Shown piece by piece: positions 14,373 to 46,951 of a DNA stretch of 64,000 nt. The notes beneath the pieces were generated by a model. It worked only from the letters and a program-made list of their open reading frames with translations. It was not told the DNA's origin and ran no database searches. A program made the translations under genes and the position numbers. Each line of letters opens with the position of its first letter. The stretch's first letter is position 1. Origin of the DNA: Trypanosoma brucei (lineage: Eukaryota). The stretch covers positions 1,056,001 through 1,120,000 of the forward strand of contig CM000207.1 in the NCBI GenBank assembly GCA_000002445.1. The letters are read 5' to 3'.

Positions 14373-14891
14373 CCAGTACACGATGAAAGTTGAGGCATTT
14401 CTTTTTCCCATTGAACATTCAACTTCCGCGCGTGGCACTGCACCGCCAAGACTTCAGTCGCTTACTAGATGCAAGTCCATTCGTGTCATTCCAATATGCC
14501 GGTAACCATGGAGAAATGGTCATTCCACTTTCCAAAACCCTCACGTACGTGCGTTTTACTTCTGATGGAGGAGAAAATAAAAGAGTTACTGCGTCCTCAA
14601 CAATCATATTTACGAAGTAACAATGCCTCGCTATCCGATGAACGACCACCCGCATTCCGTTAGTCTCTTTAGGAAATGGCATTTGGGTTCTTATTGATAA
14701 GCAACAACAAAACACATTTGCATGCATTTATATTCGAAAGGATGCGTGCGCGAGGTTACTTTACCCGACTTATGTTATTTGTCGATGCCGTTTCGATATA
14801 ACAAAAAAAAAGGAGGTTGGCTCTTTTTCTGAGTTCTAGGCAAGGTGCTCGACGCTGACACATTGGTGAGGCAAGTGCCGAACTGTGGAAA
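14373..14891 (-). repeat. Copy A of a ~520-bp dispersed repeat, in inverted orientation relative to copy B
   Basis: The reverse complement of 14373..14891 aligns base for base with 46424..46951. Checked at both ends: '…gtggaaa' ↔ 'tttccac…' and 'ccagtacacgatgaaagttgaggcattt' ↔ 'aaatgcctcaactttcatcgtgtactgg'. Only a few substitutions (e.g. agtcttgg/agttttgg) and a poly-A length difference. The flanks diverge immediately. Confidence 0.85.
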
Positions 14892-15730
14892 GACTATGGT
14901 TTGATCAGCGAATTGCTGCGGGGGATGCGGCGGTGGTTGGCACGGGCTCGTGTTGCTGTCGCCTGAAACGTTCTCTGCGATGTCACCGCCGGTATGAGTT
15001 TGTTGTGGTCGGGATGCTCGGATGCCGATTCTTTGTGGGCTTTGAGAAAGAACGTTTTGATTCCCCACCGCTGGTAACCAGGGATGGGTGTCACGTCTAG
15101 TATCTGATTGTGGTAGGAAGTGGAACAATAGAAATGTAGGTTAGTGGTTTCCCAATCGGGCTGGTAACAGGCTCAAATTGTTTAAAAAAATCAGTTTGTG
15201 AGGTAGACTACCGGTGTGAATAGGGGAGTTCTTCCGCATTTGACTTCTTTGACTGCTTGCTGATCTTACGTTCTACGTACCTTTTCCAAGAAACTGAAAG
15301 AGGGATCGGTGCCCTTACTATGCAGAAGAGGTATTGTTGGGCATCTGCTATTCGCCTTAGTGTTTGTGATTTTATCATTTAAGAAATTGGTGCATTGCTC
15401 AGTAGCGCCTGAAGTGTGTGTGGGGATTAGTTGATACTGTAACGAAGAAAATCGTTTTTGTTATTTCGTGAGCATTACAGCTTTTTATTTTTAAAGGTAG
15501 AAGTTCTTTTCAACCTCTTTGGAGTGCCGGATACAGTATGAATGACTACTAATTGAGGGTTGATTCCTGCGTTGCCTTCCTAACAAAATGCTTTCCAGCA
15601 CTTCATCTACTGTTTCATTTGTTAGTAACTCTTTTTTGGTTTTTGTGACCCTGATTATTCATGAGGGAGATGAGGGGTAGTGAATTACGTGGTTGTGTTG
15701 CTGTGTTTAGGCAAATGTACGTGACTCGAG

Positions 15731-15768
15731 TGTATGTATGTATGTATGCATGCATGTATGTATGTATG

Positions 15769-15802
<34 letters not shown>

Positions 15803-15803
15803 G
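15731..15803. repeat. Compound microsatellite (TGTA/TGCA)n-(TA)n-(GT)n
   Basis: Direct reading: 'tgtatgtatgtatgtatgcatgcatgtatgtatgtatgtatatatatatatatatatgtgtgtgtgtgtgtgg'. Confidence 0.9.
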
Positions 15804-16511
15804 TGTTCTCTTAAGAATGTGTACCTACACCACACGCGTTGTACATAGAGTTAGATGTGGAATTACATTGTATTGGTGCGATCATATCACTCAGCACCGT
15901 TGTTTTTGTTCGTATTTCATTTGTCTGATTGCTTTATTACATATTTCCCTATTGATGTGTTATCAAGGGGCATACAAGGTTATGTCTGTGTCGCTTTGGC
16001 GGACATTTTACCGCGAAGCGGAGCATAGTTGAAGTGAATGTGGCGCGCTAATAACCTGAGATATGTTACTATTGTTGGTACGGTGCGTGGTAGATTGTTG
16101 CGTCACATTCCCACCGTTGTTTGGATGGAATGCCCATGCACGTGATATTTGCGGCTCCTTTCCTCCTTTTTTAACATAATGATTTTTATGGCAGCGGAGG
16201 GTCCTTGCAGCATTGCCATTTGACGTGTTGCACGCAGACCCTTCAGAGTAAAGGACCGTTTGTTAATTGACGACGGGCTATGCGAGGTGCAGTGCTACTT
16301 TCTCTACAAGGACAAAGGACGTGTGTGCGTGTGATATTTAGTTCTTTCATTTTAATTGCATTTCCCCTTGACTAACGTTATTTGATGGCACGCCCCCTGC
16401 AAAGCACGATATACAACAAAAAATTTTCTTATCTGCAGCAGTGAAAAGTTTTTATTTTTTCTGATCCATTTGACTTTTAGTATAAAGGGCAAGGTAAAGT
16501 TTGGTTACCCG

Positions 16512-16512
<1 letters not shown>

Positions 16513-16540
<28 letters not shown>
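16513..16540. repeat. (TG)14 microsatellite
   Basis: Direct reading 'tgtgtgtgtgtgtgtgtgtgtgtgtgtg' followed by 'cgtc'. Confidence 0.9.
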
Positions 16541-16543
<3 letters not shown>

Positions 16544-18968
16544 CATTGGTTTGTTGAACTCAAGGGATTTTCAAAGTTTTGTTTAGAGATCTTTTTTTAG
16601 TTACTACGAAGATATTTAATTTTCCCAGTCCTTTACGGCTCATTTATAGATAAGATGCTTTGTGTAACTTCAGCTATATTTCTTTTGGACAGAATAAAAA
16701 ATAGCTGCGTACATTCCACTCTTTCCCACAATATAAGGCACGTCACTTTTTATATTCGCACGATATGCCGTCTCTGTTTCCCAACACATGTGCTTAGTTT
16801 CACCGACTCAGCTGAACGCTACGGTTTGGTTTGGTTGTGCGTCCTACTTGGTTGTCATCTCTTCCTGTTTTCGTTTATAACTAAGGAATACACAGAAGGA
16901 TGGACTAGAACTCAAAACGCTTTGTGCCGTCCGTCAAATAGATAGATGCCTCTCGCAACGCCCTAAGTTCTTGATGCCTTGTGAAAGGCCAATGAAGGTA
17001 TTAACACAGAAACTTCAATGCAGGAACCAAGGGAAGAATGGAGATAAGTTGGTACTGGAGAGATGTTTTTCGTGTTGTCTTTTTGTTACCTTCGTCTGAT
17101 GCGTTCACAGTGGTTTGGGTATTATTAATGGCGTACCCTGTAGCTTCTGGTATTTTTGGCTGCGTCAGTCGGCCAAAGTTTCAAGTTTTTTTTAAAATAT
17201 TTGGATACCAAACGGACAACGTAAGGTGGCTGGAGCATAAACAAAAACACTCTATTATTCACAACGCTCTTTCTTTCGGTTTTCGAACCAACTGGAGGAT
17301 AACGAATGCTGTACCGGTGACGCAGTGTCGCGGGCAATGCAATGGACCTAAAAAGCACTGAGTACCAAGGTTACTAGCTGACCACTTGTTAGGGGTGTGG
17401 GTTCGTCTCCCATGTGGCGCTTTCCTCTCCCGGGGAATGGCAGCACGTTAAAGGACTACAAGTGCTGACCATTGAAAGTAAATGACACGAAGGCGAAATC
17501 AAACAGGATGCGGTAGCATCATCTCCATGTCCACGCACCATGAAATTTGGAGAAGCGATGTAAAGTTGTATCATTCTTTTATTGGCTCCAGCGCACGTGT
17601 CTTACATGTTGGATGCTTTGGTGTATGTTTCCCATGAGGTGACACATTCGTCGACCTCACGGGACCTTTCGTGTTGTTTATACCACCAATCACCACAATA
17701 GGAAGAAAAAGCAATCATCTTCATGTGAACCAATGGCCGTGCGACTAAGTAAAAGCTTAGCCGTGTATGGAAGATGCCACCTTCATTTCTTGTCGTGTAG
17801 TGACAACATCAATGATTACTATATGTGTTCTGTTTCATCTTCCACCGCAATGATCGCTTTTACGATTCCCGCTTATGCGGGTGGATTGCATGTATGTTTT
17901 GATGAGGTGATGTTTGATCCTATTCGTTTGAATCACTTATGATCGCAGGTTCAAGATGTTCGATACATTTGCCAATGGGAGATGACACAGCACCCTCTTC
18001 TATTGATCATTATGGTCCATAATTGGCGTGTATTCCCTTTCTTTTTCCCTTTCTTTTTTTTTTTGCAAAAAAAAAAAGGAAGCTCATGTGAACTATGCAA
18101 CACCCACTGTCTCGTGGAGGGGCTCTAAATTCTATGTTCTTAGTAACAATCAATTCTTTGCCTTCCCCCAAGGTGTCGGTGAAAGGTTGACACCAGCTAT
18201 CGTCTTTAGTGTGTTGTCCGCCACGGGAAATGCTGCAAGTGGAAGGTGTTATGCCGTTTAGCTTGGACGACACCATTGGGTGATTTTCAGGTATGAAACT
18301 TACGACTCATTAGTCGTTACATGGAGTGTAAAACGGATGAATGTACCTGCCGTTTTGCCCCACACGGACCGTTGCAAAAGGCACAAGACACATGTTCGGC
18401 ACTCCAGCAGTTTGAAATGGGGGTGACACTTCGGAAGACATGCCGTCCTCAGAGTTTTTTTTTGTAGGAACGAATGGAGAGGCTTTTGAGTGTTGGGAAA
18501 ACACGGGATAGTCTTCGAAGGAGGAGTTACTGAAAGTCAGTAGGTGGTGGTGTGCCCTCTTGCTCTCAGCGCACTTTACCGATTCCAGTGTTAAGCAACA
18601 TTATGGCAAGCCCTGATTATTGGAGCAATTCTGGGGAGGCTCGACCTGCGGGTGTCTCCTCGGAAGTTGCTATGCCAGTTATCACTTCCTCTGTAGAATA
18701 TAATGTTTATGGTTATTGTTGGTCTATGGAACTATGTCTGTTGTTTGTGTGGAGTATATGCTGGTCGCAACTTTTTTTTGCTTTTGTGTGTGCGTGTGCG
18801 GATCACTGCTGTTGAATGTGCTCACCTTCATTTTCCCTACAGCAAACTGCTGATCCGACATCTGATTTTGTCTTTTCCCCCATCGAAAACATTTACATAT
18901 CTGTCGGCATTTCTTTATAAATTAAATATTCGGCATAGTTTGCGCGTTTCGTATCCATTTGGTGAGTG

Positions 18969-19415
18969 ATGTCTCGAGTGTACGTTGGTAACATTGAAAA
19001 ACGTGCAACAAAAAAGGAACTACTTGAGTTCCTGAAACCAATGGAGGAACATATCGAGGACTCGTGGTTAGCTCGGCGACCTCCGGGGTTCGCCTTCATC
19101 ACAATTGCTCCGTCTCGTGCGTGTGAATTCGTGGAGACTTTCAACGGAAAGGAGTTTCGTGGAAAGGCTCTTTTGGTTGAGCTGTCCACAATGTCGTCAC
19201 AGCGGAAGGACGGAGAGAACCGCCGCCGCCGAAGCAGTGATAGCAGACGTGATAGCAGTCGACGCAGGAGGAGGTCTGGAAGCCGCTCAAGGCACAGTGA
19301 TAGACGGCGCGACCGGAGTCGCAGCCGCAGTCACCGGCGGGACCATTCAAGAGACAGAAAGCGCCGTTGCCGCTCACGCAGCCGTAGTAGCTCTCAGGGG
19401 CCTTGTTCCCCGTGA
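18969..19415 (+). CDS. Small RNA-binding protein with an N-terminal RRM and a C-terminal Arg/Ser-rich (RS) domain, SR-protein-like
   Basis: ATG at 18969; the track's start at 18966 is a GTG. 'VYVGNI…GFAFITIA…FNGKEFRGKALLVEL' has the RNP-2/RNP-1 pattern of an RRM. The C-terminal ~60 aa are RS/RD/RR dipeptide repeats. Confidence 0.6.
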   Translation: MSRVYVGNIEKRATKKELLEFLKPMEEHIEDSWLARRPPGFAFITIAPSRACEFVETFNGKEFRGKALLVELSTMSSQRKDGENRRRRSSDSRRDSSRRRRRSGSRSRHSDRRRDRSRSRSHRRDHSRDRKRRCRSRSRSSSQGPCSP

Positions 19416-19758
19416 AATGTTGTACTTTCGGAAAAGCAATCCCAAAAGAAGTAACGATACGTGGCGAGATCCCCCCATTTTTTTTCGTTGAAGAGTACTA
19501 ACCGTATCAGTAAAGTCATGAATGAAAGGTGCGTTGAAAATCCCTATTCTTCTTTGAGACATTCTGAGTTACCCTACTCCACCTCTGGTTTAATCATCAA
19601 ACGTTGGCGGCTTATCGGTGGTTTTGTGTACGGGATTTCCCAAACTTGGTTTTCTTTCTGCAGGGGAGTTCGTTCCCCTCATTGATATCCTATTTACAAT
19701 TATATAACTTTGTCTTTCCCTACAGTGTTGTCTACTCTCAGAACAACTCTTGTTAAGA

Positions 19759-21714
19759 ATGGAAGGAAAAAATGAGAGAGACCAATACCAGGATTTGGCA
19801 CTCCACTTGAGTTTCTCATCTGGTACAGAGTTGAGCGATTCATATGTAATGTCCTATAGGGGCAGCGATGGGTGTTTTGGCGATGCTGTGTTCAATGGTG
19901 CCGCACCCGCTCGGAACGTCCTCTTTGGGAACATTCCATGCAAACAAAGAGTGGAAAAGTTTAGTATTCAGGATAGCAGCTTAGCGAATCGGTGTAACAT
20001 GCAGGTAAACTTAAAGCGTGACACACCCGTTCTTCAAGACCCTTCGGACACATTTGCAAGGATGAATCAAGTGATGCACCAAACTTTGAAGTATGTAAAG
20101 GAGGTGGAAAGTATTGATTTTAGTAGCAGTAACATAATAGATTTCAACGGTGAAATCATGGAGGACCCAAGGAGAGTGTTTCTTTCGGTATGCACCAGTG
20201 TGTTTGCTAACTTCTCGTTCTGCTCTCAGTTAGATGTAGAAAAACTTCTGAGTTTTCTATCAGATATTTTCGAGAACTATTCTGAAGACAATGCTTATCA
20301 CAACGCGGTCCACGCGGCTGACTCGGTTCAAATGTTGTACCTCATATTGAGGGAGAAACCTGCAATCCTGTTATTTACCAACGAGGAGATTCTTGTTTGC
20401 TTTTTGGCTACGCTTTGTTTGTCATTCATACACCCAGGTGTAACAGACGCGTTTCTGGCACGCATTGACCACCCGCTAACCCTTGTTTACGGTGACGTTA
20501 CAACCCAGAGGTCAGCAAGCCTTACGGCCTTCCTCTACTTCCTTAATAGAGAGGAGAACCGTTTCATAGATCTGTCCTCCAGCGCTGGCACTCGTCCCAT
20601 TTCCCAATATTTGAGGGAGTTGTTGGTTGAAACGGTTCTGGCAACTGCTCCTCGATCCCGTAGGACGCTGCTGAGTGATCTTCAGGATGTGGCGGCGTCT
20701 AATGTGGTATCGGTGGATGACCTTAGGTTCCTGCTCTCAGCGATTGTGACTCTATCGGATAGTGCGCTAGCATTGCGCCCGCGGGCACAATTTATCAGCT
20801 GGTCGCGGCTACTTTGTGCTGAGTGGCTGAGCGAGGCAACTCAAGAAGAGAGGAGAAGGATGGACCCACTCGTGCCGAACCTCCAAAAGCGAGTCGGTGA
20901 AGGTGGACTCACGATGGTATCGGATTACTGCCGGGTGTGGCTACGACCTGTGGCTGCTGCGACCCGTGCACTGGTTCCGCAGGACCTTTACGACAATTTG
21001 GAGCGAAACAGTGATGTCCCCACTTTTGGTGAAGTTGCAGCCTTCTCTGTGCCGGATGTTTCGGCTGATAAGCCATGGAGTGATGGAAGTTTATCTGTTT
21101 TTGAGATTCTTCGCAAGGTGACTATGCATGCAAAGTCTTTGGACCGAAAGGCCTCAAAGCGTGCCATTCTCAACGCAACATGTGGGCGTCTGGTATCGGC
21201 CCCCGCGTCGCAATTGTCATCACCGTTCCATGCACCTTCTGAACCGTCGATTTCGTGCTCTCCGGTGGAGAAATTGGTTTCTCATCCAAGCCGGTGCGAG
21301 CATTACTTCTCGTTTTTGCGGCTTTACGACACTTACGACAGAGAGGGCCGTCCCGCAACCGAGTTTGCAGAGCAGCTAGTTTTTTTAGCGATGCAGCTGA
21401 ATCCTGATTATGTTGGGCGTTACGCTCGCGAGGGCATAGATGCGTCTTCTAAGGAGGACTGCAGCAAGATTGCGTCCCTTATTATCCAAAGTGAAGAGGC
21501 ACCATCCACCGCGGAGGTGATAGCATCCCCATTGCGCGGGGCTGAGCAGACCGATGGCTTCATTTTGCGTTTGATGGAGATGTACACCGAACGCGACAGA
21601 AACAGAAATAATTGCTCCGTCCAGAATAGCCACACAAACCTTCAGTCGACTTCGAGGTGCCTCTTGCCTTGCTCCAACCCCGTATACGGGGGTATGGACC
21701 GTGGAAGAAAGTAG
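19759..21714 (+). CDS. Class-I cyclic-nucleotide phosphodiesterase-fold protein with degenerate metal-binding residues (probable pseudo-PDE), 651 aa
   Basis: The first ATG is at 19759; the track's start is a TTG. 'AYHNAVHAADSVQ' (nt ~20291-20330) matches the PDEase signature YHNxxHAADVxQ. The downstream region aligns to PDE4-like 'AIHDVDHPGVSNQFL…LALMYND…VLATDMS' but reads 'LSFIHPGVTDAFL…LTLVYGD…VLATAPR'. The HD and the later Asp ligands are therefore replaced. Confidence 0.6.
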   Translation: MEGKNERDQYQDLALHLSFSSGTELSDSYVMSYRGSDGCFGDAVFNGAAPARNVLFGNIPCKQRVEKFSIQDSSLANRCNMQVNLKRDTPVLQDPSDTFARMNQVMHQTLKYVKEVESIDFSSSNIIDFNGEIMEDPRRVFLSVCTSVFANFSFCSQLDVEKLLSFLSDIFENYSEDNAYHNAVHAADSVQMLYLILREKPAILLFTNEEILVCFLATLCLSFIHPGVTDAFLARIDHPLTLVYGDVTTQRSASLTAFLYFLNREENRFIDLSSSAGTRPISQYLRELLVETVLATAPRSRRTLLSDLQDVAASNVVSVDDLRFLLSAIVTLSDSALALRPRAQFISWSRLLCAEWLSEATQEERRRMDPLVPNLQKRVGEGGLTMVSDYCRVWLRPVAAATRALVPQDLYDNLERNSDVPTFGEVAAFSVPDVSADKPWSDGSLSVFEILRKVTMHAKSLDRKASKRAILNATCGRLVSAPASQLSSPFHAPSEPSISCSPVEKLVSHPSRCEHYFSFLRLYDTYDREGRPATEFAEQLVFLAMQLNPDYVGRYAREGIDASSKEDCSKIASLIIQSEEAPSTAEVIASPLRGAEQTDGFILRLMEMYTERDRNRNNCSVQNSHTNLQSTSRCLLPCSNPVYGGMDRGRK

Positions 21715-22078
21715 CGGAGCGATTGCTTCCCCGTGTATGATATTTATGGAAGTGCTATGTATACGATCGTAATTGTTGCGCGTGTAGGGAACTCTTCCCC
21801 CCTTTGCATTTTATATCTTTCAAACTTATTTGGTGAATCATCGTGCCAAGGTAACGGTGGTGATGAGACCACAGAATTTTCTCCTTTTATTCCTTTTCCC
21901 GATTTTTTCAACTGTTGGCCTTGTCGATTTCTGCGGTCACTTCCTTCCTGTTACCGTGTCTGGCAATGCGATCAGTGACTTCGACTGCTGGCTGTGTCTT
22001 TGCCCTTGGTTTAATTTGCATTTTCCTTCTTTCTCCTCCACTACCTTAATTACAACGGTATGGTATTTGCAGGGACTC

Positions 22079-22282
22079 ATGGGCCCACGCATGGCCGGTT
22101 TTCTGTTAGGTTCGGTTGCTGCTGCATCGGTGGCGGCTTTCCTCGTGCAGTACGACGTACTTCGTAGAAAGGACATAACAGAGAGGGAGATTGATGATAT
22201 GGAAACCCAAGCTGCGCTGGTTAAGGATCGTTTTTACCGGGTGCAGAGCAGGTTATTGGAATGTCAGGGAGGTGATGAATAA
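22079..22282 (+). CDS. Possible small single-TM protein, 67 aa. Low confidence; the upstream part of the track ORF is probably UTR.
   Basis: ATG verified at 22079. 'MGPRMAGFLLGSVAAASVAAFLVQY' is a hydrophobic helix followed by a charged tail. It is short and has no similarity I can recognise. Confidence 0.2.
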   Translation: MGPRMAGFLLGSVAAASVAAFLVQYDVLRRKDITEREIDDMETQAALVKDRFYRVQSRLLECQGGDE

Positions 22283-37542: not shown

Positions 37543-37680
37543 CGCGTGCTGTGAGGCTTTATGACGCACTCTTTACAGAAGGGAATACCCTCCGTTGTTT
37601 CTTGCACTTTGCTTCGGTGTTATTTCTTTCGTAATTGCTTCATGTTTCCTTACCACCTGTGCCGTAATACTACAACGCAA

Positions 37681-37705: not shown

Positions 37706-37817
37706 AAAAACTCTTGGATGCAAACACGTGCACATAGACAAACATTCATTATTATCAGTGGGTTCGTGGTTGCTAAACATCGATATTGCAGTGAGGAAAG
37801 CGGCTTTTAAGCTTCCG

Positions 37818-39302
37818 ATGCACCGTACCAGTTTACGCCTAACCATTGTACTTTTCTGCACACTGCTCAACTTTCCAGGCCTTGCGGTGGCGTGGTTCTA
37901 TTCGCCTCTCTCCGCTGCTAAGCAGCAAGCAGACAACAAAGCACCGCTACCGACGGCTGGCGACCATCGTCAGCAGCAGCGACGACGAGCTTCAGTTCAC
38001 ATGGAGTTTCTTAGGGAGAAGAGAGCTGGGGGTGTTGGGAGTGGCCAGCTGACGCAGTTGTGGGCGGAGGCTGAGGCGAAGGGGAGTGTTTCCTCCTGCT
38101 GGAAAAAGGCTCTAGATGAACTGAAAAGTGGATGCAGATCGCTGCGCACGGACGATGGAGCGAGGAGCTGGTTGGCGCTAACCATGGCGACATGTGATGA
38201 TGAAACCGATGGACGGCGGCGTAGCTGGCCCCGCTGTGAAAGCAGAGACAAAATCCAGGACTGTATATACGGTTTAGATGATACACACTATTTAGTTTAT
38301 GTGCAGTACAAGCTTCATACCGACGTTCTTTGCCTCTATATCCAAGAGGAGTCATTTCAAGAGCGTACTGAGGCTGCGGTGCACGCACTGCACACCAGCT
38401 CGATGACAGCAGCAGAGACCCTTGGTGACCTGCATCACTCTAACAAGGAATTGCTGTCATCCATGGGTGACGCCACTGAGCAGCAAAGATTGAATGTTGC
38501 GGAGACGAAGCGGCTTCACCATCAACTGCAGGACATCCAGAAAGGTCAAACGACTGCCTTTGAATCGCTGAAAAGTTCGGCTCAACGCATAACAAGAACA
38601 GTGGAGGATGCATCGTTGCACCTTCAACAACTGCACGCAGCAATTGATGAAGGCGCTGCACGCTCCGTTGCGGCACTAAGGAATGTCGCTCAGGAGGCGG
38701 AGGCATTCCAGAGTCGGACGGAGCTTCATGTTACCGGCATGCTCCGCGGATTGGAGCGGCTCGAGGTTTTCGTGCAGTTGCTTTTGGATGGGACGGTAGG
38801 CATAAGTGAGATACTGCGGGGCGTAGCACTTATGACTATGGTATTGTTGCTCACAATGCCAGCGAGGACTAGTGAAGCACGGCTCCCTTGCCTTTCTCTA
38901 GCTGCGGCAGCATACGCAGTGCGTCCGTTACTTTCAACTTCGCTTCGCAGCACCGTCACCGCGAGGTCATTCCTTACGGCACTCTCTTTCGCAGAGATCT
39001 CTGTACTGGCATACTATGCGTTGATGTACCGCACACCGGAGGAGGCTCTTCGGAGGTTGTTCCGGAGGGAAGTAAAAGGTGCGCTGGACGAGATGTGGGT
39101 ACTTCAGCTGGAAGAAATACACACAACTGTTGACACAGCTTTTAGTACTGCATTTGCCCTGATTGCAGATAGTGAAGGTCGGCACGGATGTTTGAAGGGC
39201 ACTGTGACCCCACGAAATGTTGACACAGAGGAGATCGATCCGACGGATACCCGAAAGGTAGTGCGGAAAATAACAAGCCGAAGCCGATCTCGGCGTGTCT
39301 AA
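37818..39302 (+). CDS. Membrane protein with the KAR5/GEX1 nuclear-fusion-protein architecture: signal peptide, Cys-rich ectodomain, coiled coil, C-terminal TM helices. 494 aa.
   Basis: ATG verified at 37818. The N-terminus 'MHRTSLRLTIVLFCTLLNFPGLAVAWF' is signal-peptide-like. Cys cluster: 'CWKKALDELKSGCRSL…TMATCDDE…WPRCESRDKIQDCIYG…LCLYIQ'. A long helical/coiled region follows. At the C-terminus there are 2-3 hydrophobic helices ('GVALMTMVLLLTM', 'SLAAAAYAVRPLL', 'FLTALSFAEISVLAYYALMY'). Confidence 0.45.
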   Translation: MHRTSLRLTIVLFCTLLNFPGLAVAWFYSPLSAAKQQADNKAPLPTAGDHRQQQRRRASVHMEFLREKRAGGVGSGQLTQLWAEAEAKGSVSSCWKKALDELKSGCRSLRTDDGARSWLALTMATCDDETDGRRRSWPRCESRDKIQDCIYGLDDTHYLVYVQYKLHTDVLCLYIQEESFQERTEAAVHALHTSSMTAAETLGDLHHSNKELLSSMGDATEQQRLNVAETKRLHHQLQDIQKGQTTAFESLKSSAQRITRTVEDASLHLQQLHAAIDEGAARSVAALRNVAQEAEAFQSRTELHVTGMLRGLERLEVFVQLLLDGTVGISEILRGVALMTMVLLLTMPARTSEARLPCLSLAAAAYAVRPLLSTSLRSTVTARSFLTALSFAEISVLAYYALMYRTPEEALRRLFRREVKGALDEMWVLQLEEIHTTVDTAFSTAFALIADSEGRHGCLKGTVTPRNVDTEEIDPTDTRKVVRKITSRSRSRRV

Positions 39303-39787
39303 ATGGAAGCAGCGTGCCGGTGCCGCCGCTGCACCAAAGCTTACTTGACTCAATGATGAGAGTACTTCCGTTTCTTTCCTCTATTTTTTGTTACCCTTTG
39401 TTACCCTTGTTTTTATCAGCATCGTCAAATTCAATGTTTTTCTACTTTCCTTCATTCATTTTCTCGTTTCTTAGTTTGTTTATTGACTGGTCCGTTATAT
39501 TTTATGGCATTGTGGCTTGCAATGTGTTTGTTGCCCTCAGGGAAGATGGGGTTTACTGCAGACGTGAGGAGCACTCTCACAGCAAAGCTCAACTACTTGA
39601 CTTATTTCCCTCCTTTGACACATCCATTACTTCATTTCCTTGAAAGGAAGGGAAATGTGTTATTTGGTGATGTCCTCCCTCCCACTGATGCTGCGGGTGG
39701 TGTGTAAATATTCTTGTGCCTCTCCTGCGTTCGTTTATTAAATCTTATCTTCTTCCCTTCCTCTGTCGTGTTTTATATCAAAAGGTG

Positions 39788-40681
39788 ATGATACTCCCTT
39801 CTGCCCCTCCTGATTCGTCGTCCGTAAGTAATGAACTGATGGGGTGGGCGTACGTTACGAATCAGTTGCTCTTGGACAACGCGCGGCGTGTGGTCACGGA
39901 GGTCGAAGAGCCCTCACGACGTGCCGACCTTGCGGCGGAGTGGGCAGCGGGTTTGGCAGAGCTTCTACACGTGCGTAGCACCTGCGTTTCCTCCATGTTG
40001 TGCCGATTAGTGACGGGGAACAGCAGAGAGGGTACCGAGTATGGAGTAGGGGAAACGATGGGCCTGTGTGCAGAGAATGACCACCGCGAGGCTGCCGAAC
40101 TAAACCGCCTTGAGGCCGCCCGGCGTGAACTTCATCAGTTGCGTGCAGAGCGAGAGGCAGAAAAGCAGTGCCTACGGAGGATGCGCCAATGTGTGAAGCA
40201 AGCATCTAATACTTTCGAAGAGCAGTTTGGCGTCCAGGTTTTCGCACCGAACGTGGAGGACGACACATCTGTGAAGGTAGCGGAATTACAAGATAGTCTT
40301 GCTGCGTACGTGGAGGCTACACAGAAGAAGCAAGTGCAGCTCCAAGAAGAAGTAGCGGCGCTTCGAGTGTTGTTGAAAAGCTGTGAACAGGAAGGGGGCC
40401 AACGGCACGCGTTGCGGGTAGGAGGAACGCCACTTTCATTCCCTTCGCGTAGTAATGGGACGCAGTATTCTGGCGTATTCGTGGGTGAGACGCCGTATGG
40501 TTTAGCACACACTGCAATGGGGGGCTCCCGGCCACAGCAACAGTTGTTACAGAGGAACGCCGACGGTGCAGCTTTCTCTCCTTTTCAGGGGGATCTCTCA
40601 ACCTCAGGGTTGGCTAATGCAGTCCGGGCTTGGAAAGAGAGACAACAGCGACTAAAGGAGGAGTTGCGCAACCTGCAGTGA
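39788..40681 (+). CDS. Hypothetical coiled-coil protein, 297 aa
   Basis: The track's start at 39716 is a GTG. The first ATG is at 39788. The charged helical region 'AAELNRLEAARRELHQLRAEREAEKQCLRRMRQ…' is present, and no enzymatic motif. Confidence 0.4.
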   Translation: MILPSAPPDSSSVSNELMGWAYVTNQLLLDNARRVVTEVEEPSRRADLAAEWAAGLAELLHVRSTCVSSMLCRLVTGNSREGTEYGVGETMGLCAENDHREAAELNRLEAARRELHQLRAEREAEKQCLRRMRQCVKQASNTFEEQFGVQVFAPNVEDDTSVKVAELQDSLAAYVEATQKKQVQLQEEVAALRVLLKSCEQEGGQRHALRVGGTPLSFPSRSNGTQYSGVFVGETPYGLAHTAMGGSRPQQQLLQRNADGAAFSPFQGDLSTSGLANAVRAWKERQQRLKEELRNLQ

Positions 40682-40919
40682 GGGAATGACGGCTAGTTCA
40701 TCATTATTCCAGTTTTCCCAATCCATGACTTTCCTTTTCGAAAGTACAGGCACCCCATTCCAGAGAAAGAAACACTAATGCTTGGTGCGTGTGAGTGGAA
40801 ACTTTCCTGTTTTAACATTTGCATGTATTGCGCCGTGAAACATCCCTTTGCCCTTTGTTTTTCATTATTTTCAATCACTTAGTCAGTGGGACCTGCATCA
40901 AGTCATAGTTGGGTCACAT

Positions 40920-41834
40920 ATGAGTGAAACAAACCCAGTAGTGAGAGGTGCCGTTGGTGTACATGAACTTGCACCACTCTGTTCTCACGTTTGTTTGCCA
41001 GGGGAATCGGTGCTACTGCTGGAACCCACGGCTGTCGTGACCCTTGGTAGTGGTCTTCATCCACTCCAACAAGATGGCAGTGATGACCGTAAGGAGAGTT
41101 TTGAAGCCTCAGGTGAAGAAGGAAGCACTGTTGTGGTTTCCGAGTTTTGTGGACCTGTGTTGCGCACCGCGGGGCCAAATCACACACAGCTATACAAACT
41201 CAATGGACCGGCGGCACGTCGCTACATGTACGCAGCCAGGGACCCCGTAGTGGCAATTGTAATGAAGAAGAACGCGAGTTATTACTCGTGCTATACTGGT
41301 GCTGCATCGTTGGCTGTGCTTGACGCTCTTGGCTTTGATGGTGCCACGAAAACAAACAAACCTCGATTACAAGAGGGTGACGTTGTTTATGCCTTTGTGA
41401 AAGGGAACGCTGATGCCTCATCCCTTGATACAAAGTTTGATGATGGTCGTGTGGTGGTTTCCTCCAGTGACGAGGTGGAACTAAGTTGCATGGCTGCTGA
41501 GGTCGGTTTAGTGGCGCGGGACTGGACCTCAGCAGAGGCAGTCTTTGGCCCGCTTGTGGGTGGCACAGTTGTTCGTGTCGCGTTACCTTATGCGCGCAGT
41601 CTTATCGACGGCCCTGCTTCGCGGTTGCTTGCACTGTTGGGAGATCGCGTGCCGTACGATGTGTGTGTTGGAGTCAACGGTCTCGTCTGGGTGCGAGGAC
41701 ATCCCAGTGCTGCTGACCCCACGGCAGCCGCCCGCCGTACTGTTGCTGTGGCGGCGTGTGTAGTTGAGGCGCAGGATGCCGCGACACTGGAGGAGATGGA
41801 AGCCCACGTACGCGGTTATTTTCCCAAGGAGTAA
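40920..41834 (+). CDS. Exosome cap subunit-like RNA-binding protein with S1 and KH folds, RRP40/RRP4-type, 304 aa
   Basis: ATG verified at 40920. 'GDVVYAFVKGNADASSLDTKFDDGRVV' is S1-like. The C-terminus 'FGPLVGGTVVRVALPYARSLI…LLALLGDRVPYDVCVGVNGLVWVRG' matches the RRP40/RRP4 KH consensus '…LGxxFPFEVAVGMNGRIWV'. Confidence 0.5.
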   Translation: MSETNPVVRGAVGVHELAPLCSHVCLPGESVLLLEPTAVVTLGSGLHPLQQDGSDDRKESFEASGEEGSTVVVSEFCGPVLRTAGPNHTQLYKLNGPAARRYMYAARDPVVAIVMKKNASYYSCYTGAASLAVLDALGFDGATKTNKPRLQEGDVVYAFVKGNADASSLDTKFDDGRVVVSSSDEVELSCMAAEVGLVARDWTSAEAVFGPLVGGTVVRVALPYARSLIDGPASRLLALLGDRVPYDVCVGVNGLVWVRGHPSAADPTAAARRTVAVAACVVEAQDAATLEEMEAHVRGYFPKE

Positions 41835-42184
41835 ATATAAGTTAAGGATGTTAGCGACGGTGCGCTTGCCGCTGTAAGTTTCTTTATTCCTTCTTTCCCT
41901 TTCTTCAAGGAGCTCGTGGAGTTTAATTGCTGTGCTTATACACTCCTCGTATTTTCTATCCCTCCATTTTTTCTACAACCTTTTGTTTGAAAAAGCACTT
42001 TCTGTGTAATTTATTATACACATAAAAGCCCAGGGTGCGGGTGAGATAACAAGGCTAAGGGGAAAAAAGAATAAAAGAAGAAGCGAAGTGGAGTAAACCC
42101 TCTGTCTACGCAGTGTGAAAGGTTTCACAACACTAGCATCATCGTCGCTTTTATTATTAATACTATCACAGGTGAAGCTCACCG

Positions 42185-42565
42185 ATGCCGGATTACACGC
42201 AGTTCATCAAGTACTTTAACGAGTACCCGAACATCCCACCAAGTGAGACCTCTGCGTATAGTCGACTAGCCGACACTACGTGGCGTCTGCTCACAGCTAC
42301 TGACAAGGAAAGTACGGGCACGAAGGCATCATCTCGTTCCGACGCCAACATCACCACGGGACCAACATGCCCGCCCATTGTTGTTGGGCGCTTACTTGTT
42401 TCCACGGAGGACCGCTGGCGTATACAGGCACACATGCGACGTGAGGAGGCGAAAGCTGGAGCCGGTAGGAAAGAATACAATAAAAAGGTGACACGGGCTG
42501 CTAAGCCAACGAAGGGTCCGGCACCCGGCGAAGGTTTCCCTCCGGGGCGCGGTCGGCCCGTGTGA
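42185..42565 (+). CDS. Hypothetical small basic protein, 126 aa
   Basis: ATG at 42185. It lies on the + strand between two array genes and has no recognisable domain. Confidence 0.3.
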   Translation: MPDYTQFIKYFNEYPNIPPSETSAYSRLADTTWRLLTATDKESTGTKASSRSDANITTGPTCPPIVVGRLLVSTEDRWRIQAHMRREEAKAGAGRKEYNKKVTRAAKPTKGPAPGEGFPPGRGRPV

Positions 42566-42645
42566 GGGAGAGCATTACTCGAGAAGCTGCTAGCCGCGGC
42601 CAAAACTCACCTATCCTGTGTCGCTCAGTCGTTGGGTTCTGCTGC

Positions 42646-43995
42646 ATGCGGTTACTTCTCGTGTTCCTCCTCGTGTTTCGAGAAGAACAACGTGCCGCTC
42701 TTGCGACCATCCGACAGTTTTCAATTACTTCTCATCGTTCTCACAGTGCTATTTTTCTCTTTTCCTTTTCCATTCTGCTTGCCAATGAGTATATTGTAGA
42801 CCGAGAGCACCAGTGGAGAGACCAAAGGGCAAGGCTTGTGCGACAGGAAGGAAGCAGTGGACTTCGGCGACATCACAGCGAACTGCAAATTATGTACTCT
42901 CCAAGTGAAGAAGCAGGTGCTTCCCCCGGAAATGGGCAGGACGAGAGGTTAACCTCACAACCTTTTGAAACTTCCAGGGTGCCTTCAATGACTCCCCGGA
43001 GTCTTTGGGCGAATAGCTCGAGAAGCGATGCGAGTGCGAAGCAGTTGGGAAAAAGCGGACAGTCGCTACGCTATCCTTCTCCACCACATGTACCACCTGA
43101 TGGACAGTTGGGAGCGGAGGAAGAAGTGGAACATGAGAAATACGTCTTGCAACTGCTGCAGAGGGCGTCGCGGACCATCAAGGATGAGCGTGCTCACTCA
43201 CTTTCGCTAAAGAAGGAGCTCGACGAACTAAAGCAGCTGGGTGTGACTCCTGGTGGAGTGGAGAAGCTGCAGAAGGAGAACAGATCTCTCAAGGACAGAC
43301 TGACTTTTCTTTGCGGGGGACTAAGTCAAGGAAACTTATTCAGTGTACCGGGTCAGCATTTAGAGGGTGGCAAGCATTACCGATGGAGAAGGGACCAACG
43401 ACCGCTAAAACACACTCCTGTGAGTGCGCGCGTTGACAACACGACACCAGTCCGGACGTTGTTTGGTGTCTCGCCAATGCGTCGCGATTTTGCAAGAGGT
43501 GGGACAGAATCCTGCAGTGGTACGTGGCGTTCTGCGAGTTCGTGTCACACATCACGGCGGGTTTCGGCCCGTGGGCGGTGTGGACTGCGAAGGCGGCTCA
43601 GCGTGGGGAGTACTGGGGCATTAACTGCTCTGTGGGCAGCCGCACCATTGGAAACGAGGGCGGTGAAATACACTGTGGGAATGATCGCACATCTTCGTCG
43701 CGCCATGGCACCATTACCGGCGAAGGAACAGGTTGGAGAGGTAATCCATGCAATGGTACAGGAAATTCTCCGAGAGGCTCGACAGCGCGGCACAGGTCTT
43801 AAGATGAAGCGACAAAAGCCATGTGTCTATGAGTGTACATACTCACCAAAACGAGAAAGGAAAATAGGATGTACTGTCACGCGAGTGGTTCATCTATCCA
43901 TAGACAGCGGCCGACTAACCGTAAAGGTTGGTGGAGGTCACGTGAATTTCTTAGATTTCCTGGAGCGGTATTGCAACTGCCGTTTCGCACGATAG
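42646..43995 (+). CDS. Hypothetical protein, about 449 aa from the first ATG, with a possible N-terminal hydrophobic segment
   Basis: The track ORF 42562..43995 begins at a GTG and overlaps the upstream gene. The first in-frame ATG is at 42646 ('MRLLLVFLLVF…'). The central region is helical and charged ('LKKELDELKQLGV…LQKENRSLKDRL'). Confidence 0.35.
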   Translation: MRLLLVFLLVFREEQRAALATIRQFSITSHRSHSAIFLFSFSILLANEYIVDREHQWRDQRARLVRQEGSSGLRRHHSELQIMYSPSEEAGASPGNGQDERLTSQPFETSRVPSMTPRSLWANSSRSDASAKQLGKSGQSLRYPSPPHVPPDGQLGAEEEVEHEKYVLQLLQRASRTIKDERAHSLSLKKELDELKQLGVTPGGVEKLQKENRSLKDRLTFLCGGLSQGNLFSVPGQHLEGGKHYRWRRDQRPLKHTPVSARVDNTTPVRTLFGVSPMRRDFARGGTESCSGTWRSASSCHTSRRVSARGRCGLRRRLSVGSTGALTALWAAAPLETRAVKYTVGMIAHLRRAMAPLPAKEQVGEVIHAMVQEILREARQRGTGLKMKRQKPCVYECTYSPKRERKIGCTVTRVVHLSIDSGRLTVKVGGGHVNFLDFLERYCNCRFAR

Positions 43996-44393
43996 ACATT
44001 GATACCATAGAAAAGGGTCGCACGGTCATGCGTTCCCTGTTCGATGATAGATAGATATACTGATGCATATAGCACCTTGTTCGCCCGTTTGTTGTCGATG
44101 AGGTTGGAAGGCGGTGCTTAAATACTTTTTCTTCATTATGTTATATTCGGAGTTAACTGCTACATCACGCGCACCCGTCCGGAGTCGCGGATCTTCTCCT
44201 CCCCTCTGCGGTACTTGGTGTGTGTTGATCTGTCCCCACAAGCGGGAGCTCCCGATCTTTCTCTCTTCAACTTTCTCTGAAAACAACAAGGACGAGCTTA
44301 GGAAGAGGAAAGAAACTCCACTTTTTCGTTTCGCGGAGTGACGTGGGGGAAAACGCTTACACTCCTGTACGCGTCAAACGGAACGAGTGACAA

Positions 44394-45134
44394 ATGGCAT
44401 CCAACGGTTTGGCGGAATCCAGTGAAGGCTCTCTGCCTGACGACCTGTGGTTGATCATTGGATTAGGGGGGAGTGGCGCGTTGCTGATCCTCCTCATCCC
44501 TGTGGTGTTTTTGGCCCGGCACTTCTGTGACCGGCGCCATTTCATCTCTGCCGCACCTTTACCTTCCCAAAATCACTTGCCATCGTCCAAAATTCGACTG
44601 AGGAGCAACAGTGCCCCGCCGGCCTCACTTGCTGCCTTATGCGGGCAATCGGGGTCGTATGCCGGTTTCGGCATCGGTGCAACGTCTGCGGGTGGTGGGG
44701 TGTACAACGAAGCAGTGCCTCATAACGGCCCCACGAACACCAACTGCTTCAATTCCGGTACACTCGGTGCAGCGTATAACCCTTCGACACCATCGGGGTG
44801 GGAGGCTGAAGCGGGGCGAAGCTTTACGACCCTTTCCATAGGTCTCAGTGCCCCCCAACCCACTTGGAGTGACACCACTGGGGAACGGCAGCACCCGCCT
44901 GCCACCCCGGTGGGAGACACTTCGCAGTTAGGTTACAACCCGCTAGCAGTTACGAAAGAAGCGCATCTTTTTCAATCCCATCCAAATGTTCCACAGGAGT
45001 GTGGAGGGCCTCCTCAGGAGAGTGCGGACCCCGCACAGCCGTCACCTCAATGTACCACAGAGGATGCGGAACCTCAGCCTTGTCTTAGACGCCGAAATTC
45101 TCGCGTCTCGTTCGTAGGTGAATTCCGTGCATAG
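44394..45134 (+). CDS. Hypothetical single-pass membrane protein, 246 aa
   Basis: ATG at 44394. 'LWLIIGLGGSGALLILLIPVVFLARHF' is a TM helix. The remainder is a Pro/Ser/Gly-rich low-complexity tail. Confidence 0.45.
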   Translation: MASNGLAESSEGSLPDDLWLIIGLGGSGALLILLIPVVFLARHFCDRRHFISAAPLPSQNHLPSSKIRLRSNSAPPASLAALCGQSGSYAGFGIGATSAGGGVYNEAVPHNGPTNTNCFNSGTLGAAYNPSTPSGWEAEAGRSFTTLSIGLSAPQPTWSDTTGERQHPPATPVGDTSQLGYNPLAVTKEAHLFQSHPNVPQECGGPPQESADPAQPSPQCTTEDAEPQPCLRRRNSRVSFVGEFRA

Positions 45135-45251
45135 TTATCGATTTTAGGGTGACTCGACGCAGAAGGAAGATCAGGGGATTGAAAGAACCGAGAGTGCGCA
45201 AGCATATGGGCATTTGTATACTTTCGTATGTCGTATGCCCGTATATAAACA

Positions 45252-45271
45252 ATATATATATATATATATAT
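45252..45271. repeat. (AT)10 microsatellite
   Basis: Direct reading 'atatatatatatatatatat'. Confidence 0.85.
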
Positions 45272-46423
45272 CACAGTTGTGTGCATGTATGTTTGCATTT
45301 TTTCCGCCAAAGTATTTGGCGCATTTTACTATCATTGTATTGTAGGAACCGCTTAGGGATGTAGCGATAAAAGTCGAACCAGTCGCTCGTTGTATCTCTC
45401 TGCGACCATCATCGCTGTTTCACCTGCACCCTTTTCCCTCTCTGTACTTTTCATTACCATTTCCACTATTTAACAGTTTTGTTTTGGTTTCACTGCGTTT
45501 TTGTTCACCCTATTCATGCTCATGTCTCTGGGGATTTTGTTGTTATCGTTTCCCTCACCATTTCCCCTCTGAGGTGATGCTTGGGTGAAGGATGAAATTA
45601 AATTTCATCCACTCGGCCACTTCATGCACAGTTGCTCGAACAGCATCCACGCCTAGTGGGGAGAATGAGACTCCCGCATATTTGGTTTAGTCGCCTGACG
45701 CGGTTGTAGTAATTTTTTAAAATATTCACCATTATACTGTAATTTTTACGTTGCCTCCCCCCTTTCATTTTGTGGCGAAATCGTTTGCCATTGTGTTCTT
45801 TCCCTATTTTTTTTTTTTTTTGGTCGAGGGGAGAGTTCCCCAGACTCCAGTTGTTTTTCTCTACAAAAAATAACGACGCAAGGGCATAGTAACGTCCCCT
45901 AAGTTTGAAAACGAAAGGTGTGTTGAGTTGTGTGTAAATTCACCCATCCATACACCTCCTTTTTTACTTCATCTTTTTAATTTTACTTCGTGCATTCACC
46001 CTAACATCGATGTATCCGTGAAAAAAAGTAAAAAATAAAATAAAATAAAACCAAGGTTGTTTGCTCATTAGTTGCACGTGCCTGAAAAAGTGGTTCTTTT
46101 CTCGTTTGTTTTCCTAATTTCTTCCCTTTCCTCTTTTCTCTTAAAGTTTATGTGAATAATGAGTTGACTAACTAACAATCAAAAGCGCTGCATGTACGTA
46201 ACTGTAGAATGTATGTGTGTGTATGTGTATGGGGAAGGGGGCTCATACATTTAAACCATCGGAAAGGTCGGAAGTTAATATGCACCAGCTAAAAGAAAGG
46301 CGACAAGGCTAGAATAAAGACGGAGGATGCACACAAAACGGATAAAGCAAGTGGGGAACCAAATGTTGTTTTCAAACGCCTCTACCTTTCTTTGACGCAT
46401 TCTCACCAAAGACCGTTGCATCA

Positions 46424-46951
46424 TTTCCACAGTTCGGCACTTGCCTCACCAATGTGTCAGCGTCGAGCACCTTGCCTAGAACTCAGAAAAAGAGCCAACC
46501 TCCTTCTTTTTGTTATATCGAAACGGCATCGACAAATAACATAAGTCGGGTAAAGTAACCTCGCGCACGCATCCTTTCGAATATAAATGCATGCAAATGT
46601 GTTTTGTTGTTGCTTATCAATAAGAACCCAAATGCCATTTCCTAAAGAGACTAACGGAATGCGGGTGGTCGTTCATCGGATAGCGAGGCATTGTTACTTC
46701 GTAAATATGATTGTTGAGGACGCAGTAACTCCTTTATTTTCTCCTCCATCAGAAGTAAAACGCACGTACGTGAGGGTTTTGGAAAGTGGAATGACCATTT
46801 CTCCATGGTTACCGGCATATTGGAATGACACGAATGGACTTGCATCTAGTAAGCGACTGAAGTTTTGGCGGTGCAGTGCCACGCGCGGAAGTTGAATGTT
46901 CAGTGGGAAAAAGAAATGCCTCAACTTTCATCGTGTACTGGCAAGTGAGAA
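46424..46951 (+). repeat. Copy B of the same ~520-bp repeat. It carries the 102-aa ORF 46587..46895 that mirrors 14419..14727(-).
   Basis: About 98% identical to the reverse complement of copy A. The ORF-track proteins from the two copies differ at 2-3 residues only. Confidence 0.85.

What the first reader, a model, noticed from the sequence alone, without database searches (positions are those of the whole stretch)
14373..46951. A ~520-bp inverted-repeat pair brackets a 31.5-kb block of ~15 genes
Seen directly. 14373..14891 and 46424..46951 are reverse complements of each other at ~98% identity. The boundaries are sharp, and the flanking sequence diverges within 2-3 nt at both ends. One copy sits in the gene-poor region and the other in an intergenic spacer (45.1-47.3 kb).

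Near-identical inverted repeats of this size are substrates for homologous-recombination-mediated inversion. Inversion of the intervening block would flip a whole stretch of a polycistronic unit onto the non-transcribed strand. That makes the pair either recent, or homogenised, or a dispersed mobile/SINE-like family inserted twice.

Each copy carries a 102-aa ORF with no features of a real protein, e.g. 'MHANVFCCCLSIRTQMPFPKETNGMRVVVHRIARHCYFVNMIVEDAVT…'. I cannot tell from sequence alone whether this is a known kinetoplastid dispersed repeat (e.g. a SIRE-type element) or a private segmental duplication.
Basis: seen in the sequence. Interest (0 to 1): 0.7.

Follow-up and report, generated by a model that had tools for sequence, protein, structure and literature searches.

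The report
Inverted repeat pair kept alike by conversion
Two 519-bp copies of a non-coding sequence sit in opposite orientation 31.5 kb apart on Trypanosoma brucei chromosome 9; they stay nearly identical because they copy-correct each other, the block between them was not flipped in any genome I could check, and the finding is real but fairly ordinary.

Summary
Arm A is 14373-14891 and arm B is 46424-46941 (not 46951). They are reverse complements with 4 substitutions and 1 indel (99%). The edges are sharp and there are no target-site duplications.

The window is T. brucei brucei TREU927 chromosome 9, around RRP40 (Tb927.9.7070).

- **Conservation:** both arms occupy the same sites and orientation in T. 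b. gambiense DAL972.
- **Orientation:** parental junctions are also seen in T. equiperdum OVI, T. b. equiperdum IVM-t1 and one Logan read-set contig. No inverted junction was found. T. cruzi and T. theileri have the same gene order and orientation, so the reference orientation is ancestral.
- **Concerted evolution:** the DAL972 arms are identical to each other, yet each differs from its TREU927 orthologue at 6-7 sites. Four of those sites are shared by both arms. This indicates gene conversion between the arms. Between-lineage divergence equals that of the flanks, so the sequence itself is not constrained.
- **Not a known element:** there is no similarity to an ingi element (whose ends make up RIME), no poly(A) end, no Rfam hit and no fold signal. 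The 102-aa ORFs are spurious.

Genome-wide copy number could not be measured directly. The pair is not among the seven long inverted repeats catalogued in T. brucei in 2012. I read it as a new member of that known kind, of modest interest.

The parts
14373..14891 (+). Arm A of the inverted repeat (519 nt)
   Evidence: The same site, flanks and orientation are found in DAL972 (L014 5891-6408) and in T. equiperdum OVI (L015 5410-5927, contiguous sequence on both sides).
46424..46941 (-). Arm B of the inverted repeat (518 nt), the reverse complement of A
   Evidence: The same site with both parental flanks is found in DAL972 (L011 12023-12540), IVM-t1 (L008 2843-3360) and Logan ERR7929159 (L022 1971-2488).
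14892..46423 (+). Bracketed 31.5-kb block: 4 kb of non-coding sequence, then about 17 plus-strand genes. These include an RRM/RS-rich protein (probably RBSR1), a PDE-like protein, the topoisomerase IB small subunit and RRP40.
   Evidence: ORFs; Pfam; gene calls in DAL972. Gene order and orientation are the same in T. cruzi and T. theileri.
14419..14727 (-). Spurious 102-aa ORF in arm A
   Evidence: No Pfam hit. Only one annotated counterpart exists, a 'hypothetical protein, unlikely' in DAL972 arm B.
46587..46895 (+). Spurious 102-aa ORF in arm B, differing by 2 aa from the arm A version
5471..18968 (.). T. brucei-specific stretch without credible genes that hosts arm A. Strand composition switches at about 9.3 kb and about 14.5 kb.
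   Evidence: In T. cruzi and T. theileri this position holds a 2561-aa gene, of which no trace remains here.
45135..47277 (+). Intergenic spacer or 3'UTR region that hosts arm B. A polypyrimidine run begins just after the arm's outer edge.
   Evidence: The orthologous spacers are 1.25-1.57 kb in T. theileri and T. cruzi, against 2.14 kb here.

Best explanation
The pair is a low-copy inverted duplication of 519 bp of non-coding DNA. As far as can be seen it has two copies. It arose in the lineage leading to the T. brucei group, before brucei and gambiense separated.

The arms have no detectable function of their own. Between lineages they drift at the neutral rate of their flanks. Within each genome they are repeatedly reset to one another by intrachromosomal homologous recombination that resolves as non-crossover gene conversion.

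The crossover outcome would invert the 31.5-kb block. That would place about 17 genes of a polycistronic unit, including RRP40 and the topoisomerase IB small subunit, on the non-transcribed strand. It is therefore presumably removed by selection, so only the ancestral orientation is observed.

Shown here: the existence of the pair, its conservation, concerted evolution, neutral between-lineage divergence, and absence of inverted junctions in the sampled genomes. Inferred: the conversion mechanism, selection against crossovers, and the two-copy status genome-wide.
For: **The pair and its edges**
- The arms and their sharp edges.
- The window is identified as TREU927 chromosome 9.
- RRP40 = Tb927.9.7070.

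**Conservation**
- Both arms are at identical sites in DAL972.

**Concerted evolution**
- DAL_A vs DAL_B: 0 differences. TREU_A vs TREU_B: 5. Orthologous arms: 6-7.
- Four sites (A positions 14520, 14584, 14719, 14863) separate the genomes but are shared by both arms.
- No site separates the A arms from the B arms.
- The probability of 4 or more coincident sites by chance is 1.7e-7.

**Neutral divergence**
- TREU/DAL divergence is 1.2-1.35% in the arms and 0.9-1.6% in the adjacent unique flanks.

**Orientation**
- Parental junctions occur in DAL972, OVI, IVM-t1 and ERR7929159.
- The ancestral orientation is shared by T. cruzi and T. theileri. In both, PDE and GRAM lie on one contig, on the same strand, 31-36 kb apart.

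**No function or mobile-element signature**
- No RNA family, fold signal or protein domain.
- No mobile-element hallmarks.
Against: - Genome-wide copy number was not measured, because no T. brucei genome could be searched at the DNA level. Only an ORF-based proxy was available.
- The identical DAL972 arms could in part reflect consensus calling in a Sanger assembly.
- Only assemblies were examined, not reads. A low-frequency or heterozygous inversion would be invisible.
- A single conversion event would suffice to explain the four shared sites, so the word 'repeatedly' is an inference. It draws some support from the mosaic states in IVM-t1 and ERR7929159.
Confidence: 0.65

Rival explanations
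1. The 519-bp unit belongs to a dispersed, possibly mobile (SINE-like or retroposon-derived) family present at many sites in the T. brucei genome. The two copies would then face each other here by coincidence.
For: - The size resembles RIME (about 500 bp; from general knowledge).
- Arm A lies in a dynamic, gene-poor stretch that acquired an ingi in DAL972 only 2 kb away.
- The T. brucei spacer hosting arm B is about 0.5-0.9 kb longer than in T. cruzi and T. theileri, which is compatible with an insertion.
- Genome-wide copy number was not counted.
Against: - No target-site duplication, no terminal poly(A), and no similarity to a full ingi including both ends that make up RIME.
- No third copy in the window or in about 250 kb of fetched Trypanozoon loci, although all of these come from this region.
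- The arm ORF has only two relatives among 15 billion proteins, both from arm B.
- A k-mer assembly of ERR7929159 runs straight through arm B into both flanks, which is unlikely for a high-copy repeat.
- Arms at 99-100% identity with no fixed arm-specific site fit conversion between two partners better than old independent insertions.
Confidence: 0.12
2. The arms are kept complementary by selection. Both are transcribed on the plus strand of the polycistronic unit, so sense and antisense copies pair into a 519-bp double-stranded RNA. That RNA would feed the nuclear Dicer (DCL2)/AGO1 siRNA pathway, as reported for the seven known long inverted repeats of T. brucei.
For: - Tschudi et al. 2012 (PMC3447711) found that all seven long inverted repeats (422 bp to 10 kb, 99-100% identical arms) yield siRNAs. 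They speculated that arm identity is selected.
- Arm B lies inside a plus-strand transcription unit.
- Their unexplained 'miscellaneous' siRNA loci include four on chromosome 9, listed without coordinates.
Against: - This pair is not in their list, although they aligned each chromosome with itself.
- Arm A lies at or just upstream of a strand-composition switch that looks like a transcription start region. It may therefore not be transcribed in the required sense (inference).
- Arms 31.5 kb apart are separated by about 17 co-transcriptionally processed mRNAs, so pairing in cis is unlikely.
- Conversion alone explains the identity, and the sequence drifts at the neutral rate.
Confidence: 0.12
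3. The pair drives a reversible 'flip-flop' inversion of the 31.5-kb block, and that inversion segregates within T. brucei populations.
For: - Evidence of recombination between the arms.
- The block is reversed in the T. equiperdum OVI scaffold CZPT02000195.1, and the locus-tag order follows that reversal.
- A precedent exists in yeast: a 24-kb flip/flop region flanked by homogenised inverted repeats (PMC9731477, abstract seen).
Against: - The OVI reversal is joined by a 10-N gap.
- The reversed piece carries 398 bp of A's outer flank, arm A and the parental inner flank in one contiguous run. Its other end carries the parental 46423|B junction.
- The join places 13975 next to 46942, which matches neither the parental nor the inverted arrangement.
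- All other junctions are parental.
- An inversion would place essential genes antisense to polycistronic transcription (inference from the established mode of kinetoplastid transcription).
Confidence: 0.05

Closest known systems
Long inverted repeats IR1-IR7 of the T. brucei core genome (Tschudi et al. 2012, BMC Genomics 13:427, PMC3447711)
   Same: Two arms of a few hundred bp to 10 kb lie on one megabase chromosome and are 99-100% identical. The unit is non-coding or has no known element identity. The arm length here (519 bp) falls within their range of 422-10,011 bp.
   Different: Their repeats span only 3.6-12 kb in total. This pair brackets 31.5 kb with about 17 housekeeping genes. It is on chromosome 9, where they list none. 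siRNA production, which they showed for all seven, is untested here.
Repeat-mediated rearrangement platforms of Leishmania (Ubeda et al. 2014, PLoS Biol 12:e1001868; cited in PMC8065229)
   Same: Intergenic repeats of several hundred bp bracket gene blocks and recombine by homologous recombination. Inverted pairs are a recognised class.
   Different: The Leishmania repeats form large families (mostly SIDER-derived), and inverted pairs yield linear extrachromosomal amplicons. Here only two copies are seen, no amplification is known, and the detected product is gene conversion.
RIME/ingi retroposons of T. brucei
   Same: Similar unit size (RIME is about 0.5 kb), an intergenic location, and presence in the same gene-poor stretch where DAL972 carries an ingi.
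   Different: There is no sequence similarity to either end of an ingi, no terminal poly(A) and no target-site duplication. All three were tested here and none is met.
Inverted low-copy repeats that undergo concerted evolution and mediate inversions (the yeast chromosome XIV flip/flop region, PMC9731477; human inversion polymorphisms flanked by inverted repeats, PMC3961182)
   Same: Near-identical inverted arms are homogenised by gene conversion and bracket tens of kb with about 15 genes.
   Different: In those systems both orientations segregate. Here only one orientation, the ancestral one, is seen. Polycistronic transcription makes the inverted state presumably deleterious.

Membership tests
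RIME/ingi non-LTR retroposons | Sequence identity to the conserved 5' end and the 3' end of ingi (RIME is the two ends of ingi joined) | tested here: not met
   A word-7 blastn of the arm against a complete 5.2-kb ingi recovered from DAL972 gives only 10-16-nt chance matches with E >= 1.2. That element has APE and RT domains, an A11 tail and a 13-bp target-site duplication.
RIME/ingi non-LTR retroposons | Terminal poly(A) tract and target-site duplication flanking the insert | tested here: not met
   The only A-run (14802-14810) is internal, 81 nt from the arm's edge. The flanks (GCAAACCT / GACTATGG at A; CTCACTTG / TGATGCAA at B) share no duplication.
SIRE/VIPER-type elements of T. cruzi | Sequence similarity to SIRE | tested here: inconclusive
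   No SIRE reference sequence was available. The arm-containing regions gave no hit at E <= 0.01 against about 85 kb of T. cruzi and 43 kb of T. theileri loci. That sample may or may not contain a SIRE copy.
Long inverted repeats of T. brucei (Tschudi et al. 2012) | Two arms of at least about 400 bp in inverted orientation on one chromosome with about 99-100% identity, not an assembly artefact | tested here: met
   519/518 nt at 99% identity. The pair is reproduced in independent assemblies: DAL972 has both arms, and OVI, IVM-t1 and a Logan contig each have one arm with flanks.
Long inverted repeats of T. brucei (Tschudi et al. 2012) | Source of AGO1-bound 22-25-nt siRNAs | not testable with these tools
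   No small-RNA read data are available. The paper's tables give no coordinates for its chromosome 9 'miscellaneous' loci.
Low-copy repeats under concerted evolution (gene conversion) | Paralogous copies within a genome are more alike than orthologous copies between genomes, with shared lineage-specific substitutions | tested here: met
   Differences within a genome are 0 (DAL972) and 5 (TREU927), against 6-7 between orthologues. There are 4 shared lineage-specific sites and 0 arm-specific fixed sites. The chance overlap has P = 1.7e-7.
Inverted-repeat-mediated inversion polymorphism | Both orientations of the bracketed segment exist among individuals or strains | tested here: not met
   Only parental junctions are found in TREU927, DAL972, OVI (at contig level), IVM-t1 and ERR7929159. 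The sample is small and based on assemblies only.
Structured non-coding RNA gene | Match to a curated RNA family, or a fold more stable than shuffled sequence | tested here: not met
   Rfam gives no hit at gathering thresholds or at E <= 1. Fold z-scores are -0.74 and +0.37.

The most novel reading that the evidence does not exclude
The arms are not passive. Arm A sits exactly on the strand-composition switch at about 14.5 kb, which looks like the start of the polycistronic unit. Arm B is an antisense copy 31.5 kb inside that same unit. Together they could generate complementary transcripts that form a 519-bp double-stranded RNA and feed the nuclear DCL2/AGO1 pathway. That would make this an eighth, unusually wide-spaced, siRNA-producing inverted repeat, with arm identity maintained by conversion and possibly by selection.
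Probability: 0.13. Interest if true: 0.5.

Novelty: new member of a known kind. Interest (0 to 1): 0.3.

Why it matters
If the reading is right, this locus is a clean natural example of two points. First, homologous recombination in the T. brucei core genome acts between short (0.5 kb) repeats more than 30 kb apart. Second, only the non-crossover outcome survives, which is consistent with polycistronic transcription forbidding inversions. It adds one pair to the short published catalogue of long inverted repeats in this parasite. It also gives a simple PCR-testable locus for measuring conversion and inversion rates, and a candidate for checking whether wide-spaced repeats also feed the siRNA pathway. 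It does not change any current view of trypanosome genome biology.

Tried and rejected
1. **RIME/ingi identity.** Rejected by direct comparison with an ingi recovered from DAL972.
2. **Real protein in the arms.** Rejected: there is one relative cluster (a DAL972 'hypothetical protein, unlikely' plus one Logan ORF) and no Pfam hit.
3. **Structured RNA.** Rejected.
4. **Arms as the conserved core of a longer, older duplication.** Rejected: there is no extra homology within +-4 kb.
5. **The reversed T. equiperdum OVI scaffold as evidence of inversion.** Rejected after locating the N-gap and the parental junctions inside the contigs.
6. **Polarising which arm is the original.** I looked for homology in the T. 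cruzi and T. theileri spacers and found nothing. Only the weak spacer-length hint remains.
7. **A pseudogene remnant in the gene-poor stretch.** tblastn with the T. cruzi and T. theileri 2561-aa neighbour gene found nothing better than E = 0.02, and that hit is elsewhere in the window. A Pfam scan of ten ORFs found nothing above threshold.
8. **Link to the siRNA-producing pseudogene Tb09.160.3400.** Rejected, because RRP40 in this window is Tb09.160.5160, so that locus lies far away.
9. **Literature searches for TbrPDED gene identifiers** returned nothing.
10. **A direct genome-wide copy count** was impossible.


Full report
**Where the window comes from.** Exact look-ups of eight ORF products place the window on chromosome 9 of Trypanosoma brucei brucei TREU927, covering proteins EAN76709 to EAN76742 on a 3.06-Mb record. 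Pfam identifies several genes:
- a PDE-like gene (19759-21714)
- the small subunit of topoisomerase IB (25428-26579)
- RRP40 (40848-41834)

The literature gives RRP40 as Tb927.9.7070 = Tb09.160.5160. The 148-aa RRM/RS-rich gene at 18969-19415 is probably RBSR1, Tb927.9.6870. That assignment rests on gene numbering and sequence character and was not verified by sequence. All credible genes are on the plus strand.

**The observation.** A single inverted pair exists in the window. Arm A is 14373-14891 (519 nt) and arm B is 46424-46941 (518 nt), with 4 substitutions and one 1-nt indel in an A-run.

The edges are sharp. In an alignment with 60-nt flanks, similarity stops at the first base outside the arms. 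A sensitive blastn of +-4 kb finds nothing more. There is no third copy in the window. The flanks carry no target-site duplication, and the only A-run is internal.

**What the unit is not.**
- It has no Rfam match, either at gathering thresholds or at E <= 1.
- It contains no tRNA.
- It has no fold stability beyond shuffled sequence on either strand.
- The two 102-aa ORFs have no Pfam match.
- Among 5.8 billion clustered proteins the ORFs have one relative cluster with two members. One is a DAL972 'hypothetical protein, unlikely' (CBH14305.1) and the other is a Logan ORF. Both lie in arm B.

By luck, DAL972 carries a complete ingi-type retroelement 2 kb left of arm A. It is 5.2 kb long, with APE and RT domains, an A11 tail and a 13-bp target-site duplication at window 12422-12434. 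The arm shares nothing with it. That excludes RIME, which consists of the two ends of ingi; this last point is from established knowledge.

**Conservation and orientation.** I fetched the orthologous regions through exact protein look-ups.
- **DAL972** has both arms at the same sites, with the same flanks and orientation, in gap-free sequence (L014 5891-6408 and L011 12023-12540).
- **T. b. equiperdum IVM-t1**, a chromosome-level assembly, has arm B between both parental flanks (L008).
- **A 2.5-kb Logan contig from run ERR7929159** runs from the 246-aa gene through arm B into the outer flank (L022).
- **T. equiperdum OVI** looked at first like an inversion. In scaffold CZPT02000195.1 the block is reversed, and the locus tags follow that order. 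However, the reversed piece is one contiguous run of window 13975..46451. It contains A's outer flank, arm A, the parental inner flank and, at its far end, the parental 46423|B junction. It is joined to 46942... across ten Ns. That join matches neither the parental nor the inverted arrangement, so I treat it as a scaffolding artefact caused by the repeat.

No inverted junction was found anywhere.

**Outgroups.** In T. cruzi and T. theileri the genes from the RBSR1 orthologue and PDE through RRP40 to the GRAM-domain gene, pseudouridine synthase, MRP-L47 and AMP deaminase lie on one contig. They are on one strand and in the same order as here. The reference orientation is therefore ancestral.

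Upstream of the RBSR1 orthologue both species have a 2561-aa PH/inositol-phosphatase-like gene. T. brucei has no trace of it in the window. Instead it has 13.5 kb without credible genes, and this stretch hosts arm A. No homology to the arm is detectable in the outgroup spacers. Which arm is the original therefore remains open. The only hint is that the B spacer is 0.5-0.9 kb longer in T. brucei.

**Concerted evolution.** I aligned seven arm sequences. Pairwise differences are as follows.

| Comparison | Differences |
|---|---|
| DAL_A vs DAL_B | 0 |
| TREU_A vs TREU_B | 5 |
| TREU vs DAL, orthologous arms | 7 and 6 |

Four sites (A positions 14520, 14584, 14719, 14863) distinguish the two genomes but have the same state in both arms of each genome. 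No site separates A arms from B arms. The one candidate, 14450, is G in TREU_A and OVI_A but also in the B arm of ERR7929159.

Seven and six differences falling independently among 519 sites would coincide at four or more positions with P = 1.7e-7. Because both genomes share the insertion sites and edges, independent duplication is not credible. The arms must have exchanged sequence after the lineages split. IVM-t1 and ERR7929159 show mosaic combinations of the variable sites, which hints at more than one event.

TREU/DAL divergence in the arms (1.2-1.35%) equals that of the adjacent unique flanks (0.9-1.6%). The sequence is therefore not under purifying selection. Identity within a genome is a product of conversion, not constraint.

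**Mechanism.**
- Shown: recombination between the arms occurs, and only the parental orientation is present in the sampled genomes.
- Inferred: the recombination resolves, or survives, as non-crossover conversion. A crossover would invert about 17 genes of a polycistronic unit and leave them without sense transcription.

The pair is evidence for homogenisation, not for inversion.

**Comparison with known systems.** Tschudi et al. 2012 surveyed TREU927 with Inverted Repeats Finder and self-BLAST. They listed seven long inverted repeats (422 bp to 10 kb, 99-100% identical arms, total spans 3.6-12 kb, none on chromosome 9), and all of them produce siRNAs. The present pair fits that class by arm length and identity. 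It differs in having a far larger, gene-filled spacer, and it is not in their list. Whether it yields siRNAs cannot be tested here.

Their siRNA-producing pseudogene Tb09.160.3400 lies elsewhere on the chromosome, judging by gene numbering. The Leishmania repeat platforms and the inversion systems of yeast and human are mechanistic analogues rather than relatives.

**Limits.**
- No trypanosome genome could be searched at the DNA level, so the two-copy status rests on indirect evidence.
- Orientation evidence comes from assemblies, not reads.
- The identical DAL972 arms might be partly a consensus effect.

**Verdict.** This is a real feature, correctly spotted, with small coordinate errors. It is best read as a low-copy inverted duplication under gene conversion. 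That makes it a new member of a known kind, of modest interest (0.3).

Noticed in passing
window 12422-12434; L001 17839-20879 and L014 1-3942 (DAL972 chr9 830644-835851): T. b. gambiense DAL972 carries a 5.2-kb ingi-type non-LTR retroelement on the minus strand at this site. It has APE and RT domains, an A11 tail and a 13-bp target-site duplication (GGAAAATAAGATT). The site is empty in TREU927.
   Followed up: yes
window 5471-18968; L019 783-8468; L020 643-8328: T. cruzi and T. theileri have a 2561-aa PH_29/Exo_endo_phos2 (inositol-phosphatase-like) gene directly upstream of the RBSR1 orthologue. T. brucei has no detectable remnant of it in the window. Instead it has 13.5 kb without credible genes, which suggests a lineage-specific gene loss or a synteny break.
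   Followed up: partly
window about 9300 and about 14500; 14900-16600: Strand composition switches from purine/G-rich to C-rich at about 9.3 kb and back to G+T-rich at about 14.5 kb. The cumulative GC-skew minimum falls on arm A. The interval 14.9-16.6 kb is strongly G+T-rich on the plus strand and contains (TGTA)18 and (TG)14. This resembles a termination region followed by a GT-rich Pol II start region within a head-to-tail gene array, which is an inference only.
   Followed up: partly
window 15802-16513 vs L014 7319-7546: There is a length polymorphism in the GT-rich stretch: 710 bp in TREU927 against 226 bp in DAL972, and the two do not align.
   Followed up: no
L009 3333-3342; L015 5002-5011 (T. 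equiperdum OVI scaffold CZPT02000195.1): The public OVI scaffold has the whole 32-kb block in reverse orientation, joined across a 10-N gap exactly at the outer edge of arm B. The contig-level junctions are parental, so this is a repeat-induced scaffolding error that also reverses the locus-tag order.
   Followed up: yes
L008 10923-16726 (IVM-t1, GCA_003543875.1): In this assembly the MRP-L47 gene (274 + 87 aa) and the AMP deaminase gene (213 + 427 aa) are split into fragments. They are 471 and 1690 aa in TREU927 and OVI. This probably reflects indel errors in the long-read assembly.
   Followed up: no
L022 (Logan ERR7929159 contig, 2522 bp): A k-mer assembly passes through the whole of arm B into both flanks, and this arm carries four private substitutions. 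Either arm A differs enough in that strain for the assembler to separate the two, or arm A is absent there.
   Followed up: no
window 37689-39302: The ORF is 537 aa in TREU927 but is annotated as 494 aa in DAL972 and OVI and 279 aa in IVM-t1. It is described as T. brucei-specific. The start codon assignment differs between annotations.
   Followed up: no
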